Assembly (NCBI RefSeq): GCF_013315695.1
Contig: NZ_CP054353.1
Direction: 5' to 3' (one strand)
Source of the DNA: Escherichia coli
GTDB taxonomy: Bacteria; Pseudomonadota; Gammaproteobacteria; Enterobacterales; Enterobacteriaceae
DNA length: 64,000 nucleotides
Below, piece by piece: positions 3,001-9,000 of this stretch. The position numbers were made by a program. Position 1 is the first letter of the stretch. The number at the start of each line of letters is the position of its first letter.

Positions 3001-6000
3001 ACTTCAAATGTAGGATTCAGATTAAACACAGGAGATAAATTATAAGCTGGAGTTGTCATTGCAAGATTATTTAAAGCACCCTGTTTGAGATTGGTTATCG
3101 GTGCTTCATTGACTGACATTTTTACATCTGACACAGAAGAATTATCATCGAAAAGCAATCCCTTAATTGTGTTAAAGAGAGAATGACTATTATCAGGTGT
3201 AGTTGTTGCAGTGCCAGCGCCTTTATATTGATTAGGAACGAGATTAGAAAGATTCTGTTTCATCCCTTCATTGCTTAATGGCGGTGCATCACCCATATTT
3301 TTCTGAATAGCATCTGTCTTATCATCATTACGATTAAACCAGTTTACAATCTTCATAATAGCTTCAAAGAGACTTCCTGTAGCTTCTCCCAGCTTCGTAA
3401 AATACGGAGTGAGATTAGAAAGGTTTTTCATAAACTCTTCCGTTACTTTTGGATCGAGAGATTTCATAAAGCCGTCTACGAATGCTACTTGTCTTGCATC
3501 AGAAAGCTGTGAAAGCTGTCTGTTTAGTTCTCTGAATTTAACAATAGAGTCTTGCTGTGTTTCTGTTAGCCATTTTCCAGAGGCTTTTTGCTGATTAATA
3601 CTTTCTTGTACATCTTTAACGGAACGTTGCCAATATTTTGACGTAAGCATCAAATCATCGCCCAGGTCTTCTAAACGTTGTCCAATTTGGGAGTCTGAAA
3701 ACCCTTTTTTCATCATTCCATTAACAGCCTTAGAAATTAATCCAGCCGGATTATCAGCAAATTTTTTAAGGTCGCTTTTGTTAATAACACCGATGTTTAT
3801 AGACTGGCCCCCTGAATCTCCAGACAACCAGTATCACTTATTTAAGTGATAGTCTTAATACTAGTTTTTAGACTAGTCATTGGAGAGCAGATGATTGATG
3901 TCTTAGGACCGGAGAAACGCAGACGGCGTACCACACAGGAAAAGATCGCAATTGTTCAGCAGAGCTTTGAACCGGGGATGACGGTCTCCCTCGTTGCCCG
4001 GCAACATGGTGTAGCAGCCAGCCAGTTATTTCTCTGGCGTAAGCAATACCAGGAAGGAAGTCTTACTGCTGTCGCCGCCGGAGAACAGGTTGTTCCTGCC
4101 TCTGAACTTGCTGCCGCCATGAAGCAGATTAAAGAACTCCAGCGCCTGCTCGGCAAGAAAACGATGGAAAATGAACTCCTCAAAGAAGCCGTTGAATATG
4201 GACGGGCAAAAAAGTGGATAGCGCACGCGCCCTTATTGCCCGGGGATGGGGAGTAAGCTTAGTCAGCCGTTGTCTCCGGGTGTCGCGTGCGCAGTTGCAC
4301 GTCATTCTCAGACGAACCGATGACTGGATGGATGGCCGCCGCAGTCGTCACACTGATGATACGGATGTGCTTCTCCGTATACACCATGTTATCGGAGAGC
4401 TGCCCACGTATGGTTATCGTCGGGTATGGGCGCTGCTTCGCAGACAGGCAGAACTTGATGGTATGCCTGCGATCAATGCCAAACGTGTTTACCGGATCAT
4501 GCGCCAGAATGCGCTGTTGCTTGAGCGAAAACCTGCTGTACCGCCATCGAAACGGGCACATACAGGCAGAGTGGCCGTGAAAGAAAGCAATCAGCGATGG
4601 TGCTCTGACGGGTTCGAGTTCTGCTGTGATAACGGAGAGAGACTGCGTGTCACGTTCGCGCTGGACTGCAGTGATCGTGAGGCACTGCACTGGGCGGTCA
4701 CTACCGGCGGCTTCAACAGTGAAACAGTACAGGACGTCATGCTGGGAGCGGTGGAACGCCGCTTCGGCAACGATCTTCCGTCGTCTCCAGTGGAGTGGCT
4801 GACGGATAATGGTTCATGCTACCGGGCTAATGAAACACGCCAGTTCGCCCGGATGTTGGGACTTGAACCGAAGAACACGGCGGTGCGGAGTCCGGAGAGT
4901 AACGGAATAGCAGAGAGCTTCGTGAAAACGATAAAGCGTGACTACATCAGTATCATGCCCAAACCAGACGGGTTAACGGCAGCAAAGAACCTTGCAGAGG
5001 CGTTCGAGCATTATAACGAATGGCATCCGCATAGTGCGCTGGGTTATCGCTCGCCACGGGAATATCTGCGGCAGCGGGCTTGTAATGGGTTAAGTGATAA
5101 CAGATGTCTGGAAATATAGGGGCAAATCCATTAACACATAAGCAATCAGTATGATTGGTTAGGTGATTACTCTTACTGCGCACAGCGCAATAGATTTCTT
5201 CGTGGGCGTTACCGCCAACGAAGTTACACGAAGAAAGTAACGCTTTGCTTTCGGTGTGAGCGGAACGGGCCAGCCACGAAGCCCGAAAGGTAGCGGAGTA
5301 AGGCTGCTTGCCAGAGAGTGAAGCTAACGCCGGAAGGCAAAAGATCATATATATAGATATAAAGAATATTATTATTATGATCTAATTAATAATCTAATAT
5401 AGTTTTATTAATAGTCTTATTGTAGTTCACAGTGACCTACCCCCTAGCTCACTATGACCTACCGTTACTACCAATCATCACATAGCACTCACTCTGTGTA
5501 ATGCCTTTCTATGTGTGTGCCATAATCCCCTATATTCCCTGTGTAAATCATAGAATATCCCTAACTTATTCCTGTGTAATTCCATACTAAAAATTCAATG
5601 AAAAGTAGCTTAAAAGTGCAATTCTTACTTTCTTCACTTTTACATCACTTTCGCAAATCCTTGTGTAGTGCGGCCTACAGAGCACCATCAGAAATTGTTG
5701 GCTAAAAATTGTTCTGCTTGTTTCTTAACGAGTTTTCTCGTTTGTGCAAATTTTAAAATTTATTTTGTTTTTACAGCCTTATTTCGTGTAATGCGTGGCA
5801 TAGCAAGCCCTTTTCTTGTGTTGTCAAGACATTTGGCAACGTTCAAACATCTGTTTAGAAATGCCAAATTGTTGATCTAACAAATAAACCTGTATAAACA
5901 GAACACCATTTAATCTATTCCCCTGTGTAATCCACTACATCACACAATAAAAACAAAAAAACCTTTAATTATGTTTCATAGCATACAAAAGTCAACAGAA

Positions 6001-9000
6001 GCCCTCTCGTGCTCCTACGTAAAAAATCCATCACTTTTCCCCTGATACATCAACTCAAGGCGTTCTATGTGTTCCTTAGTGCATATTACGTTTATTATGT
6101 TAAATTGATTTTGGCCTATATTTTGACCTGCACCCGCATAAACACTGGTTTCATCGCTTACACTCCTTGTGAGACGTGGTGCTGTTTCTAGCATCTGATC
6201 CGACATAAAACCGATCATTCTCGTGTTTAGTGAAAGTTTAGTGAGAGACATTACAGAAAGGCTTTCTGTGTAATGATTTAATAGGTAAAAACGATGTTGA
6301 TTACGCAAGAAAATTCCTTGCTGATATTTGGGGATTCTGGATTTTCCAGATCGGGGGGCGCTGAAAATCGCGTTAAGCACCTCTCGCAATCTAGCCATAA
6401 GGGAAGGGATATAGGTATTTAGATGTATTTATAGCTATTTATGGCTATTTATTTTTTATTTGCCTTTATTTAAAAATAACCTTATAAATCAATAAGATAC
6501 ACAACTATCTGTTTATATTTTAATCAATTAAATCAAGTTTAATACCCTTAAATCACCTGAAAATACCCTTAAATACCCCAATAATTAATTTTAAGGTTTT
6601 CCGTGTTCTCTTCTGCATTATGAAAATGCAAAATAAGGCACAAAACAAGCGCACAGACGCATTAAACACACATCACCTATACATCCCTATACCAAGCAAT
6701 GAAAATAGCGTTAGAATGCGTCCTGTTGCGTTCTGGAGATTTTCAGAAATCCTCTCTAAGCCATTTCAACTCATTAAGGAGTTTTCTTTCTTCGTTCTCT
6801 CTCTGTTTACGCTCTAGCCAGGCTTTTCCTTCTGGCGTAGACAGGAACTTACGAGCGTGAATCTTGCGGTTATTACGTTTGATAGCTGCAATGTTTTTCA
6901 TCGTGTGCCTCTGTATTCATATGAAAATTAACAAGTTACATACTACACAGGGAGACTACGCATAAAACACAATACAAGTAAAGATACATTTTCAAGACAA
7001 TAGGAGCCATAAAGCGCCTTTGATGGGCTACCCCAAAAAATAAGCGCCGTAGGCGTATCCACTAAAAGGGCTTTTTCACAAAAGCTATGAAGTCTTAGCA
7101 GTTCTTCTCTTATCAGGCACCCGTTGTACTCCGGTGGACGAAACCGTGCTAGAGCTTGATTCTTTCCCGATCAAGTTAGGTTTTGAAGAGGTGGGCTTTG
7201 ATCCACTATTGCACTTAAAACTCTTCCCATCATTTAGCCTGTTTATCCTCTGCAACGTCTCACGACGTGTAGCATCATTGGACACCGCGCCAGGTGTGGA
7301 ACATCTTGCTAAGAGTTTTGGTAGAAGGTTTAGAGACGGTGGCACGTCTTCCAGCTTCAAAGGAACTTGTTACGAGGTTGAGCCTGGGAACTACTCGCCC
7401 ATACGTGTTACACTACCAAAGCCCATAACAACGTATAGGCGTTTGTAAGTGATAACAGAAGATACAATTTCTTAGAGAAGTTAAGCTAAGTTATTGATTT
7501 TCTTGATTGTGCGATAATAGGAACAATACACATAGGCGATAAGCTTTGTTTTTGTTGCCTTTTTTATTGTTCATTTTTTATAGATACCCCCAAAAGTACC
7601 CCCATATCTTTTTCCGCCCCTGAAATTTGGTTGTTATTCATACAGCATATCAGGCGGTAACGCTCTCCCTTTAACCCACTTATTGTATGATAGTGCTATC
7701 CCACAATAAGGAATCAGCCAGCCATGAGAATGACCAGCCGCAAAAAAGAGATACTTAGCTACTTTGAACCGGATAACCTCGAATGGGTGACTGGTGAGAT
7801 TGGTGCGCCGCCGTTCGATGTGTCGGGTGTGGCCTACCTGCTTCATGGCATGGTGTCGTTCGATAAGCGTCACCAGCTCGAATCAACCCGGCGCACACTG
7901 GAAAGCATGGTTGCTGGTGGACTGCTTGAGCGGGTGACAGTGTATGAATCGCGCCAGATACGGCGCGGCGGTGATACTAACGCAACGGTCGTGCGCTACG
8001 GTTTACCCGGTCAGTGCGCTGTTATGCGCGATACTGGCGGCGCTGACAACGCAATATCAGGTGAATACATGCGGGTCAGTTAATAGCCTGCAATCTGTCG
8101 TTGATGCGGCTCAGGTCGTAAACCCGGCGTTCAATATCCAGCATCAGGAAATTGTGGATCTCGGCCTGCTCAGGATTATCAGACTCTCTGGCCTGTAATA
8201 GCAATTCATTGTAACCATGCAAGCCGCCTGAGTTTTCCGCCGGGGTGGTGCCTTTCCCACGCAGGCAGCTAATGGGCTGATTACTCGTATCGTGTGTTTG
8301 CTTCTCCAGCACAATGACGCAATCCCACCAGTCGCCAAAGTCATACGTGTAAACCAGCTTGTCACCCTCATTCTGGAGCGCCGCCCATAGTGGCGTGATT
8401 GCCGCGTTACCCATGCTTTCATCCTCACCCCATACGCGATACTCGCTACCTGGATCACCTTTACGCCCTTTCTCGAACATATACAGGTGTTCGTCATTCC
8501 AGCCAAAAGCTAACTGGATCACGGCATGAAGTTTACTAAAGGGGATTTGCTCTGGAACCAGCACACGCCGCCATATAGGTGGTTTGCTGTCTCGGATGGT
8601 TATCTTTAGCTGGTACATGCAAATCCTGAATAAATGCGAATCGGAAGGATAACGATACTGACGTACTCACAATTCTGTAAAGGTGAATAAAGGAAATTTG
8701 CTTAATACGCATAAGTTACATGTGGAATAATCCCATATCTACCTGCGCGGCGCTGGCTTCTTCCACTGATAGGCAGGTGCTCGCATCATTTCGCGGAACC
8801 TGTCGCGCCGGGCTATATCGGCATTAACTGATCGTTCTATCTCCCGTTGATCTGCCTGTGTAAGCTGGTGGCCTCCGTGCTCAAGTTTGGCGATGGTCAA
8901 TAAGGCTATTTCGCGTGGTGTCATACGTCATACCCTCTGGAAGAATGAAACACGCCCGGATTAAATTTCATTTTTCGCGGGTATAAAAAAACGATGGGGC

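What the first reader, a model, noticed from the sequence alone, without database searches (positions are those of the whole stretch)
5131..7723. 2.6-kb ORF-poor, AT-rich segment with a CTGTGTAAT iteron array: candidate replication origin or large regulatory/ncRNA locus
Between IS2 and the next convincing gene there is no ORF over about 130 aa, which is unusual for E. coli. The segment holds at least 5 exact same-orientation copies of CTGTGTAA(T/A) plus 2 variants, often in a TCC(C)TGTGTAAT context, then an extremely AT-rich tract with its own short repeats. This resembles an iteron origin or partition site of a plasmid-like or satellite replicon, yet no Rep or primase gene is visible; it may have been lost at the IS2 junction, or act in trans.
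Basis: partly seen in the sequence, partly recalled or inferred. Interest (0 to 1): 0.7.

Follow-up and report, generated by a model that had tools for sequence, protein, structure and literature searches.

The report
Satellite island's origin and packaging-signal region
The gene-poor stretch is the non-coding control end of a small, IS2-damaged mobile island at the thrW tRNA gene; it keeps a remnant replication origin and a 40-base exact copy of the genome-end cutting site of phi92-like lytic phages, which suggests the island family is an undescribed phage satellite.

Summary
Window 5131-7723 has no ORF over 131 aa, holds 5 of the window's 6 CTGTGTAAW copies (about 1 expected), and is followed by a tract of about 30% GC.

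The segment is the right-hand non-coding end of a roughly 12.2-kb island bounded by 20-bp att repeats at tRNA-Thr. In this window an IS2-adjacent deletion of 6,413 bp removed the capsid-to-Rep genes.

Window 6322-6392 is homologous to the right junction of the direct terminal repeat (DTR) of Stephanstirmvirinae phages. It includes a 40-nt exact match to phi92 that straddles the DTR end. Island variants instead match Phapecoctavirus. A distant island relative keeps the block in its own gene-free gap.

Intact islands encode homologues of the helper's capsid, tape-measure-like and tail-initiator proteins, but no terminase or portal.

The Rep-like protein has four N-terminal HTH types, each paired with its own 20-22-bp iteron array. 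Type A survives at window 5423-5466. The CTGTGTAAT array does not track Rep type, and what binds it is unknown.

Best reading: origin plus packaging-site (pac) mimic of a defective phage satellite. No experiment supports this yet.

The parts
589..608 (+). Left att core copy (ATGGTGCCGATAAGAGGAGT, 1 mismatch); left boundary of the island
   Evidence: A 20-bp direct repeat of the tRNA-Thr 3' end lies at both island ends in APEC O1 (L002 2398-2417 and 14643-14662). The window copies were found by blastn.
695..2029 (+). Tyrosine integrase (thrW type)
   Evidence: ORF. It is 99% identical to the APEC O1 island integrase, which PGAP annotates as a tyrosine recombinase.
2111..2824 (-). 237-aa tail protein, annotated 'baseplate' or tail-tube-initiator-like
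   Evidence: phrog_817, E 2e-33. It is 60% identical to an ORF of the phi92-like phage A150. An 91%-identical nucleotide stretch lies in a 'tail tube initiator' gene of phage EC_OE_11.
2847..3799 (-). 3' fragment of the 609-aa tape-measure-like gene, cut by IS2
   Evidence: phrog_16051, E 2e-51. It is 31-53% identical to an ORF of phage A150. IS2 sits in this gene in AF3 as well.
3800..5130 (+). IS2; its right end abuts a 6,413-bp deletion of island DNA
   Evidence: The inverted-repeat ends are read. Window 1-5130 equals L001 458-5587 and window 5131-9000 equals L001 12001-15870. The deletion removed the capsid gene, eight small genes, the Rep-like gene and about 950 bp of the non-coding region.
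5131..5339 (.). Remaining left part of the non-coding region; function unknown
   Evidence: Equals L002 12001-12210 at 99%. No family hit was found for its ORFs.
5340..5422 (.). AT-rich tract next to the iterons; candidate DNA-unwinding element of the origin
   Evidence: Sequence read. A duplicated AT-rich unit flanks the iterons in L002 (family D7). The unwinding role is inferred from the layout of iteron origins.
5423..5466 (+). Type-A 22-bp iterons (TAGYTCACWRTGACCTACCCCC): one full copy and one truncated copy; remnant origin
   Evidence: APEC O1 has three copies with a 22-bp period (D1). This repeat is present in all 9 distinct loci with a type-A Rep HTH that include the region. It scores 0-1 hits in loci of types B, C and D, which carry their own arrays at the same place. 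The window lacks the next 292 bp of L002, 12335-12626.
5494..6274 (+). CTGTGTAAW array: 5 exact copies and 2 variants, all in one orientation; protein-binding array with unknown binder
   Evidence: Enrichment. The array is independent of Rep HTH type. It is not enriched in a phi92-like genome, with 6 copies in 146 kb on both strands. It is absent from the distant relatives L021 and L023. The intact island has three further ATTACAC copies in the inverted orientation at L002 11836-11943.
6322..6392 (+). Copy of the helper phage's DTR right junction (TGATATTTGGGG...TCGCGTTA|AGCACCTCTCGCAA); exact 40-mer at 6350-6389; predicted cut between 6375 and 6376
   Evidence: A 46-nt stretch is 95.7% identical, and a 40-nt stretch is exact, to phi92 321-360. 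That stretch straddles the annotated DTR end at 343. The block is conserved in four Stephanstirmvirinae phages and three island variants, while the flanks do not align. It is present once per genome in 424 of 5426 E. coli genomes.
6393..6610 (.). Extremely AT-rich tract with short repeats; includes a degenerate second copy of the junction core (CTGAAAATACCCTTAAATACC, 6557-6577)
   Evidence: GC 0.30. Repeat family D15. Function unknown.
6743..6901 (-). 52-aa basic ORF (p52); probably a real small gene and a candidate recombination directionality factor
   Evidence: Annotated by PGAP in relatives. A GAGG motif lies 8 nt upstream of the ATG. It is 96-100% conserved and present in the thrW-integrase loci that include this end (absent from the truncated L018), but absent from the glyU-integrase variant. 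No family hit. The proposed function is inference only.
6902..7502 (.). Island-side arm next to the att core (candidate attP arm)
   Evidence: It is 98.6% identical between island types whose other non-coding parts are 72-82% identical or unalignable, and it is tied to the thrW integrase. It is replaced in the glyU variant.
7503..7522 (+). Right att core copy; right boundary of the island
   Evidence: Window 7464-7522 equals L002 14601-14660, where the tRNA-Thr gene begins.
7523..7723 (.). Leader of the neighbouring island; not part of this element
   Evidence: Similarity to tRNA-adjacent copies of the island stops at about 7522. The next genes belong to a different island.

Best explanation
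The segment is the cis-acting, non-coding end of a defective copy of a ~12.2-kb integrative island. The island family behaves like a phage satellite of large virulent myoviruses of the subfamily Stephanstirmvirinae (phi92-like and phAPEC8-like).

Shown here:
- The island is bounded by att repeats at tRNA-Thr.
- It carries homologues of only three helper virion proteins, plus an integrase and a Rep-like HTH protein.
- About 30% of the intact element is gene-free.
- That gene-free region contains arrays of 20-22-bp repeats that co-vary with the Rep HTH type.
- It also contains a ~70-bp copy of the helper's DTR right junction, whose sequence tracks the helper genus.

Inferred mechanism:
1. On helper infection the island excises, using the integrase and the arm at 6902-7522.
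2. It replicates from the iteron and AT-rich origin (window 5340-5466 is the remnant).
3. Its concatemers are recognised and cut by the helper terminase at the junction mimic, between 6375 and 6376.
4. The DNA is packaged into particles altered by the island's own capsid and tail homologues.

The CTGTGTAAT array is a set of binding sites for an unidentified protein. That protein is not the Rep. The array may help assemble the complex at the origin or at the cutting site.

In this window the IS2-adjacent deletion removed Rep, the capsid gene and the other genes between them. Only cis sites remain, so this copy could move only with functions supplied in trans.
For: Element and deletion.

Gene content. 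These show a capsid protein (phrog_29; PF03864), a tape-measure-like protein, a tail protein and Rep-like hits. No terminase, portal or lysis family was found.

Helper homology: the tail protein is 60% identical, the tape-measure-like protein 31-53%, and the capsid protein 22% (E 7e-7) to ORFs of a phi92-like genome. The variant island's tail protein is closer to Phapecoctavirus (53%) than to Justusliebigvirus (49%).

Junction mimic:
- A 40-nt exact match straddles the phi92 DTR end.
- Variant islands L005 and L006 match the Phapecoctavirus DTR end, where the DTR is 328 bp.
- A seven-sequence alignment shows one conserved block and unalignable flanks.
- The distant relative L021 (capsid protein 63% identical, different replication module) has the block in its gene-free gap in the same relative orientation.
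- Both helper DTR boundaries share GTTR|AGCACCTYCTC.
- DTR ends are reported for this subfamily in PMC12210895 and PMC12695924.

Origin: there are four HTH types, 27-32% identical to one another. Each is paired with its own iteron array at the same position in 15 distinct loci. No iterons lie inside the rep gene.

Genetic exchange with helpers: island protein p55 is 100% identical in phage inny.

Precedent: the PLE satellite mimics the pac site of the lytic phage ICP1.
Against: - No experimental or sequence evidence of excision, packaging or transfer. The predicted attP junction was not found in IMG/VR or JGI metagenome contigs. All IMG/VR hits are prophage predictions from isolate genomes.
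- Only the right DTR junction is copied. No significant copy of the left junction was found. How DTR-ended unit-length satellite DNA would be made is therefore unexplained.
- How Stephanstirmvirinae terminases recognise DNA is not known, so 'pac site' is an inference from position.
- Many islands lack some repeat arrays, and APEC O1 carries several array types with one Rep.
- The CTGTGTAAT array has no assigned partner.
Confidence: 0.6

Rival explanations
1. Defence decoy rather than transfer signal. The island uses the junction copy, and its homologues of helper capsid and tail proteins, to titrate or misdirect the helper terminase and assembly. This would protect the host population without the island itself being packaged.
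For: The junction copy and the helper-homologous structural proteins fit interference as well as hijacking. Interference with tail assembly by island-borne genes is a described strategy (PMC11364771, listed; abstract only read). No packaged form was found.
Against: The island keeps an integrase, att sites, its own replication module with type-matched iterons, and a compact size across genera. That is the profile of an element that moves. Known satellites both interfere with the helper and transfer, so the two readings are not exclusive.
Confidence: 0.15
2. One reading: the CTGTGTAAT copies are the iterons of a replication origin or partition site, bound by the island's Rep, which was lost at IS2.
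For: The motif is strongly enriched and oriented. It lies near AT-rich DNA. A Rep-like gene exists in intact copies and was deleted here.
Against: The five-copy array occurs with Rep HTH types A, C and D, which are only 27-32% identical to one another. Spacing is irregular, 33-347 bp. Other 20-22-bp arrays co-vary with HTH type. No partition ATPase or ParB-like family was found among the island proteins.
Confidence: 0.1
3. Inert remnant. The island is a decaying prophage-like fragment. The non-coding stretch is eroded DNA, and the phage-like 40-mer is a scar of past recombination with a phi92-like phage.
For: This copy is clearly damaged by IS2 plus a deletion. Islands and phages do exchange DNA.
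Against: - The block is at least 99% identical in 360 of the 424 genomes that carry it.
- Its variants track different helper genera at the same functional spot.
- It persists in a relative whose capsid protein is only 63% identical.
- No remnant of any gene was found in the segment.
- Indels between variants are mostly 1-2 nt, as in long-standing non-coding DNA.
Confidence: 0.1
4. The segment encodes one or more large non-coding or regulatory RNAs.
For: It is long, conserved and gene-free. Terminator-like hairpins number 4, against 1.7 expected.
Against: No Rfam match at E<=1 in the window or in the intact island, apart from the tRNA. Sigma-70-like promoters are fewer than in shuffles, 3 against 8.0. 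The region is a mosaic of exchangeable repeat cassettes, which suits DNA sites rather than a folded RNA. Covariation could not be tested because the alignable variants are too similar.
Confidence: 0.05

Closest known systems
PLE satellites of Vibrio cholerae and their lytic helper ICP1
   Same: A chromosomal island that parasitises a virulent myovirus. It has its own replication initiator and origin, and it mimics the helper's packaging site (14-bp pac mimicry; Boyd and Seed, bioRxiv 10.1101/2024.04.22.590561).
   Different: No sequence or gene-content relation was seen. The helper here ends in direct terminal repeats, and the copied site is the DTR junction itself. The island carries homologues of helper capsid and tail proteins. 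From my own knowledge, PLE instead uses a scaffold, TcaP, to remodel helper capsids. Nothing has been tested experimentally here.
P4-like satellites and helper P2
   Same: An integrative satellite that carries the helper's terminase substrate (a cos site like P2's) and its own replication system with short repeated binding sites at ori and crr. This comparison rests on my own knowledge.
   Different: No homologue of the P4 alpha primase-helicase, Sid, Psu or Delta was found among the island proteins. The helper here is virulent and DTR-ended, not a cos phage.
PICIs of Enterobacteria (for example EcCICFT073) and capsid-forming PICIs
   Same: Islands of about 10-15 kb with an integrase, a replication module that varies between members, and in some cases a capsid-protein homologue used to make small capsids. 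This comparison rests on my own knowledge.
   Different: No AlpA, primase-replicase, small terminase, portal, protease or head-tail connector families were found. The helpers of those elements are temperate phages. Here the integrase lies at the end far from the tRNA, and 30% of the element is non-coding.
Iteron-type origins (lambda ori/O, plasmids P1, R6K, pSC101; SaPI ori)
   Same: Several 20-22-bp repeats at roughly two-helical-turn spacing next to AT-rich DNA. A cognate HTH initiator is encoded nearby, and the repeats change when the initiator's DNA-binding domain changes.
   Different: The origin is not inside or immediately 3' of the rep gene. It lies about 1.3 kb upstream of the operon. 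Some islands carry cassettes of several types. No replication assay exists.
T7 concatemer junction as a packaging substrate
   Same: In a DTR phage the junction region is the cis signal that lets foreign DNA be packaged. Plasmids carrying a T7 origin and the junction are packaged (Chung and Hinkle 1990, from my own knowledge).
   Different: Only one side of the junction is present in the island. The recognition rules of Stephanstirmvirinae terminases are unknown.

Membership tests
   The core is 9 bp. Start-to-start spacings are 45, 33, 351 and 343 bp (about 90-140 bp where the two variants fall between copies).
   Five copies occur with HTH types A, C and D.
Iteron replication origin - 22-bp repeats at 5423-5466 | Several phased repeats next to an AT-rich tract | tested here: met
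   Intact APEC O1 has three copies with a 22-bp period, flanked by AT-rich units. The window keeps one full and one truncated copy plus the AT-rich tract at 5340-5422.
Iteron replication origin - 22-bp repeats at 5423-5466 | Cognate initiator encoded in the element | tested here: inconclusive
   Intact copies have a 229-aa HTH_36 protein with phage replication-initiator hits (phrog_270, E 1e-9; PF13730, E 5e-5). It is deleted in this window. The E-values are modest and no helicase or primase was found.
Iteron replication origin - 22-bp repeats at 5423-5466 | Repeat type co-varies with initiator type | tested here: met
   The pairing of types A, B, C and D holds in 15 distinct loci. APEC O1 and L010 carry an additional type-B array.
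Iteron replication origin - 22-bp repeats at 5423-5466 | Supports autonomous replication with the initiator supplied | not testable with these tools
   Needs cloning and a replication assay.
Phage satellite (general) | Integrative element with att sites and its own integrase | tested here: met
   20-bp att repeats and a tyrosine integrase.
Phage satellite (general) | Lacks the genes needed to build and fill a virion by itself | tested here: met
   There are thirteen genes. No terminase, portal, protease, sheath, tube or lysis family was found.
Phage satellite (general) | Carries the helper's packaging signal or a means to redirect packaging | tested here: inconclusive
   A copy of the helper's DTR right junction is present and tracks the helper genus. 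Its function as a packaging signal is inferred. The left junction was not found.
Phage satellite (general) | Induced, replicated and transferred by a helper phage | not testable with these tools
   No excised form was found in the sequence collections. This test has low power.
P4-like, PICI, capsid-forming PICI, PLE (named satellite families) | Family marker genes (P4: alpha, sid, psu, delta; PICI: alpA, pri-rep, terS; capsid-forming PICI: portal, protease, connectors; PLE: its own gene set) | tested here: not met
   PHROGs and NCBIfam scans of the island proteins give none of these. PLE-specific genes were not compared directly.
Structured non-coding RNA | Match to a known RNA family, or conserved base-pairing | tested here: not met
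   Rfam at E<=1 gives nothing in window 1-20000 or in L002 8300-14750 apart from the tRNA. Covariation was not testable.
Decayed coding region | Frameshifted similarity to a known protein | tested here: not met
   The longest ORFs have no PHROG family. tblastn of island and variant proteins, including the invertase, against the segment finds only p52. Indels between variants are mostly 1-2 nt. No search against a general protein database was run.

The most novel reading that the evidence does not exclude
The thrW and glyU islands, with relatives in Citrobacter, Klebsiella, Enterobacter, Cronobacter and Serratia, form a previously undescribed family of phage satellites. They would parasitise large virulent DTR-ended myoviruses (Stephanstirmvirinae). 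They would be packaged through a copy of the helper's terminal-repeat junction, and they would bring their own capsid, tape-measure-like and tail-initiator homologues. Replication would run from exchangeable Rep-iteron cassettes.
Probability: 0.5. Interest if true: 0.85.

Novelty: new variant of a known kind. Interest (0 to 1): 0.72.

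Why it matters
Satellites of virulent phages are known in detail only for Vibrio cholerae PLE and ICP1.

phi92-like and phAPEC8-like phages are often proposed for therapy against pathogenic E. coli. A satellite present in roughly a fifth of complete E. coli genomes could lower their yield. It could also spread by riding them and shape which strains they can infect. The segment is in 1016 of 5426 genomes, and the phi92-type junction copy is in 424.

The junction copy also points to where the terminase of this phage subfamily recognises and cuts DNA, which has not been mapped. 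The paired Rep types and repeat arrays offer a natural set of matched initiator-origin pairs that can be tested directly.

Tried and rejected
- Rfam scans of the window and the intact island: only the tRNA.
- CTGTGTAAT as a helper-phage promoter or genome-wide motif: 6 copies in 146 kb of a phi92-like genome, so not enriched.
- CTGTGTAAT as a sigma-70 -10 element: it lacks the A at position 2, and promoter-like sites are fewer than in shuffles.
- CTGTGTAAT as weak DnaA boxes: it matches about 7 of 9 positions of TGTGNAWAA (consensus from memory). The strictly conserved extra bases do not fit, so I did not adopt this.
- Copy of the helper's left DTR junction in the islands. For phi92 against APEC O1, 92 of 100 shuffles reach the observed score. 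For BI-EHEC against the O104 island, 1 of 100 does. The second gene-free gap of the O104 island has no phage match.
- Residual DTR homology upstream of the block: 24 of 200 shuffles reach the score, and control regions score as high. A 50-nt promoter-like match (E 0.003 in a tiny search space) is left as a hint only.
- Iterons inside the rep gene, as in lambda: none.
- Excised circular form: the predicted attP junction is absent from IMG/VR and JGI metagenome contigs.
- IMG/VR relatives: all are prophage calls from isolate genomes, so they give no termini.
- Plasmid collection: no plasmid origin resembles the segment. The three hits are the island itself, and two of those records are chromosome-sized.
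- Remnant of the invertase or another gene in the segment: none.
- Literature: no paper in the held library links satellites to these phages.

Full report
**1. The observation.**

Window 5131-7723 has no long ORF. The largest ORFs are 131 aa (overlapping the IS2 end), 127, 104 and 91 aa. PGAP annotates only a 52-aa ORF there in near-identical genomes.

CTGTGTAAW occurs six times in the 64-kb window. Five copies are on the + strand between 5494 and 6274. Expectation for the whole window is 1.02, and none of 100 shuffles reaches six. Two variants lie at 5660-5668 and 5785-5792. GC drops to 0.30 at 6301-6750.

Two boundary corrections apply. IS2 is 3800-5130. The element ends at 7522, so the last 200 bp belong to a neighbouring island.

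**2. What the segment belongs to.**

The segment occurs in 1016 of 5426 complete E. coli genomes, nearly always once and on the chromosome. In APEC O1 (locus L002) it is the end of a 12.2-kb element between two copies of ATGGTGCCGATAATAGGAGT. One copy is the 3' end of tRNA-Thr.

The gene order of that element is:
- tyrosine integrase;
- a 237-aa tail protein;
- a 609-aa tape-measure-like protein;
- a 342-aa major capsid protein (PF03864);
- eight small genes;
- a 229-aa HTH protein with phage replication-initiator hits (phrog_270, E 1e-9; Pfam HTH_36);
- two small genes;
- 3.6 kb with no annotated gene other than a 52-aa ORF, ending at the tRNA.

No terminase, portal, protease, sheath, tube or lysis family was found.

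The window is identical to strain AF3 (L001) except that 6,413 bp abutting the right end of IS2 are missing. This is an IS2-adjacent deletion. It removed the capsid gene, the Rep-like gene and the genes between them, and about 950 bp of the non-coding region.

**3.

A search of the phage collection with the non-coding region gave one kind of hit. A 46-nt stretch is 95.7% identical to about 60 phi92-like phages (Justusliebigvirus). The core is a 40-nt exact match, ATCGGGGGGCGCTGAAAATCGCGTTAAGCACCTCTCGCAA, at window 6350-6389.

In phi92 this stretch is at 321-360. It straddles the annotated end of the 343-bp left direct terminal repeat (DTR), reading ...GCGTTA|AGCACC.... A DTR of 342 bp was determined with PhageTerm for the relative BME3 (PMC12210895). 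DTRs are stated to be general for the subfamily (PMC12695924).

Variant islands in O104:H4 (L005, thrW) and in strain JX21CE33 (L006, tRNA-Gly) lack this core. At the corresponding place they instead match the DTR end of phAPEC8-like phages (Phapecoctavirus) at 81-82%. For phage BI-EHEC I measured the terminal redundancy as 328 bp, and the match again straddles its end.

I aligned four phages from different genera of the subfamily with three island variants. The alignment shows a single conserved block, TGATATTTGRG, then about 35 nt, then TCGCGTTAAGCAC. The flanks do not align. Each island's variable positions resemble one helper genus.

A metagenomic relative (L021) has a capsid protein only 63% identical and a different replication module. 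It still has the block in its own 1.8-kb gene-free gap, in the same orientation relative to its genes. A second relative, L023, gives a weak match (E 9e-4).

The phi92-type block is present once per genome in 424 of 5426 E. coli genomes. It is at least 99% identical in 360 of them.

In the four phages the left and right DTR boundaries share the motif GTTR|AGCACCTYCTC. This suggests that the motif is the cleavage site.

**4. Link to those phages beyond the block.**

Three island proteins have homologues in a phi92-like genome (record MG065639, labelled 'Campylobacter phage A150', UNVERIFIED). The tail protein is 60% identical, the tape-measure-like protein 31-53%, and the capsid protein 22% (E 7e-7).

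The O104-type tail protein is nearer to Phapecoctavirus (53%) than to Justusliebigvirus (49%).

Phages inny and muut carry DNA 97-99.6% identical to part of the island. It includes a 100% identical copy of the small protein p55. Islands and these phages therefore meet and exchange DNA.

**5. The replication origin.**

The Rep-like protein is a mosaic. Its N-terminal HTH region comes in four types, A to D, that are 27-32% identical to one another.

At one position in the non-coding region, each type is accompanied by its own array of three to five repeats of 20-22 bp. Spacing is about 22-24 bp or multiples of 11 bp. The arrays lie next to AT-rich DNA:
- Type A: TAGCTCACTATGACCTACCCCC.
- Type B: dyads of the form GGAAAnnnTTTCC.
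- Type C: TGGATGTAACGAGAGGTTACA.
- Type D: ACCCCCACAGAATTCTGTTA.

The pairing holds in 15 distinct loci. No repeats lie inside the rep gene. These arrays are the best candidates for the origin iterons.

The window keeps one full and one truncated type-A copy (5423-5466) and the AT-rich tract (5340-5422). It lacks the next 292 bp found in APEC O1.

**6. The CTGTGTAAT array.**

The array is real but is not the Rep iteron.
- Five copies occur with HTH types A, C and D.
- The spacing is irregular.
- It is not enriched in the helper genome.
- It is not a sigma-70 -10 element.
- It is absent from distant relatives.

In these loci, five copies occur only together with the phi92-type block. The two rightmost copies lie in the segment specific to that type. 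In intact islands three inverted copies lie about 1.5 kb to the left, so the motif flanks the origin cassettes on both sides. I take it to be a binding-site array for an unidentified island, host or helper protein.

**7. Other parts.**

The 52-aa ORF at 6743-6901 (- strand) has a Shine-Dalgarno motif. It is 96-100% conserved. It occurs with the thrW integrase but not with the tRNA-Gly integrase, so it may be a recombination directionality factor. That is inference only.

The stretch 6902-7522 is 98.6% identical between island types that otherwise differ strongly. It is also tied to the integrase type, as expected for an attP arm.

**8. Mechanism: what is shown and what is inferred.**

Shown:
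- The anatomy of the element.
- The deletion.
- The homology of the block to the helper DTR junction, and its tracking of helper genus.
- The Rep-repeat pairing.
- The homology of the structural proteins to helper proteins.

Inferred:
- Helper infection triggers excision.
- Rep fires the iteron origin.
- The helper terminase cuts the island concatemer at the junction copy.
- Island DNA is packaged into particles modified by the island's capsid and tail homologues.

The closest precedent is PLE, which mimics the pac site of the lytic phage ICP1.

Weak points:
- No excised or packaged form was found.
- Only the right junction is copied.
- Terminase recognition in this subfamily has not been studied.

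**9. Alternatives.**

- A defence decoy that titrates terminase is compatible with most of the data and is not exclusive of transfer.
- An inert remnant is unlikely, given the conservation and the helper-matched variants.
- A non-coding RNA has no support.
- A decayed gene has no support.

**10. Novelty.**

Searches of the held literature found no paper linking satellites to phi92, phAPEC8 or their subfamily. The marker genes of P4-like, PICI and capsid-forming PICI satellites are absent.

I rate the find as a new variant of a known kind: a phage satellite with helper packaging-site mimicry and an iteron origin. The copy in this window is defective. Its value lies in exposing the family and a putative terminase target in a group of phages used for therapy.

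Noticed in passing
window 7523-9600 and beyond; L001 14594-23586: A second, unrelated island follows directly at the same tRNA-Thr site. It carries a pRiA4b ORF-3 family protein, a PerC regulator, a P22-gp16-family ejection protein, IS1 and another integrase. ARAGORN finds no tRNA anywhere in the 64-kb window, so the tRNA copy lies outside it or is lost.
   Followed up: no
window 560-588: The DNA just left of the island's left att core (AACTTATTGATTTAA) resembles the island's own right arm next to the att core (AAGTTATTGATTTTCTTG). This hints at a remnant of a tandem array of related islands.
   Followed up: no
L005 12676-13227; L005 11550-11571 and 11813-11834: Some island variants carry a 183-aa Hin-like serine DNA invertase inside the non-coding region (phrog_125, E 7e-62). 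A pair of 22-nt inverted repeats lies 241 nt apart nearby, so an invertible switch is possible. The window copy has no trace of the gene.
   Followed up: partly
L043 (phage inny, MN850601, 120157-120781); L002 10273-10842: The Justusliebigvirus phages inny and muut carry DNA 97-99.6% identical to the island's p55 gene and its surroundings. p55 is 100% identical and lies next to a 367-aa protein with HTH regions 27-32% identical to the island Rep. The phi92-like genome A150 lacks it. This could be a phage counter-measure or the source of the island's replication module.
   Followed up: partly
L002 12437-12612: APEC O1 has a type-A Rep, yet its non-coding region also holds a four-copy type-B array and single copies resembling type-C and type-D repeats. 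It is a mosaic of origin cassettes.
   Followed up: partly
L002 8933 (- strand); window 6557-6577: A second exact copy of AGCACCTCTC, preceded by TTTG as at the helper's left DTR boundary, lies on the opposite strand inside the 119-aa gene of the intact island. About 0.02 such copies are expected by chance in 12 kb. A degenerate copy of the junction core lies 196 bp downstream of the main one. Either could be a second cutting site.
   Followed up: partly
L003 72-94 and L004 1400-1480 (phi92 terminal regions): The phi92 DTR and the 1.1-kb gene-free stretch before the right DTR contain several copies of ATGATAATCATT. One, GTAAATGATAATCATTATC, matches 17 of 19 positions of the E. coli Fur box (consensus recalled from memory).
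   Followed up: no
phage records MG065639, MG065645, MG065656, MG065689: Records labelled 'Campylobacter phage' (UNVERIFIED) are phi92-like Justusliebigvirus genomes and carry the same junction block. The host label is doubtful.
   Followed up: no
L002 8422-8758; L005 7692-8683: The islands have a second gene-free gap of 0.3-1 kb between the capsid module and the small-gene module. It has no match in the phage collection.
   Followed up: partly
L021 264-845; L023 3816-4394: Relatives from metagenomes carry a short (192-193 aa) Phage_integrase-family gene next to the gene-free gap, in addition to a full-length integrase in L021 (L023 ends before that side of the island).
   Followed up: no
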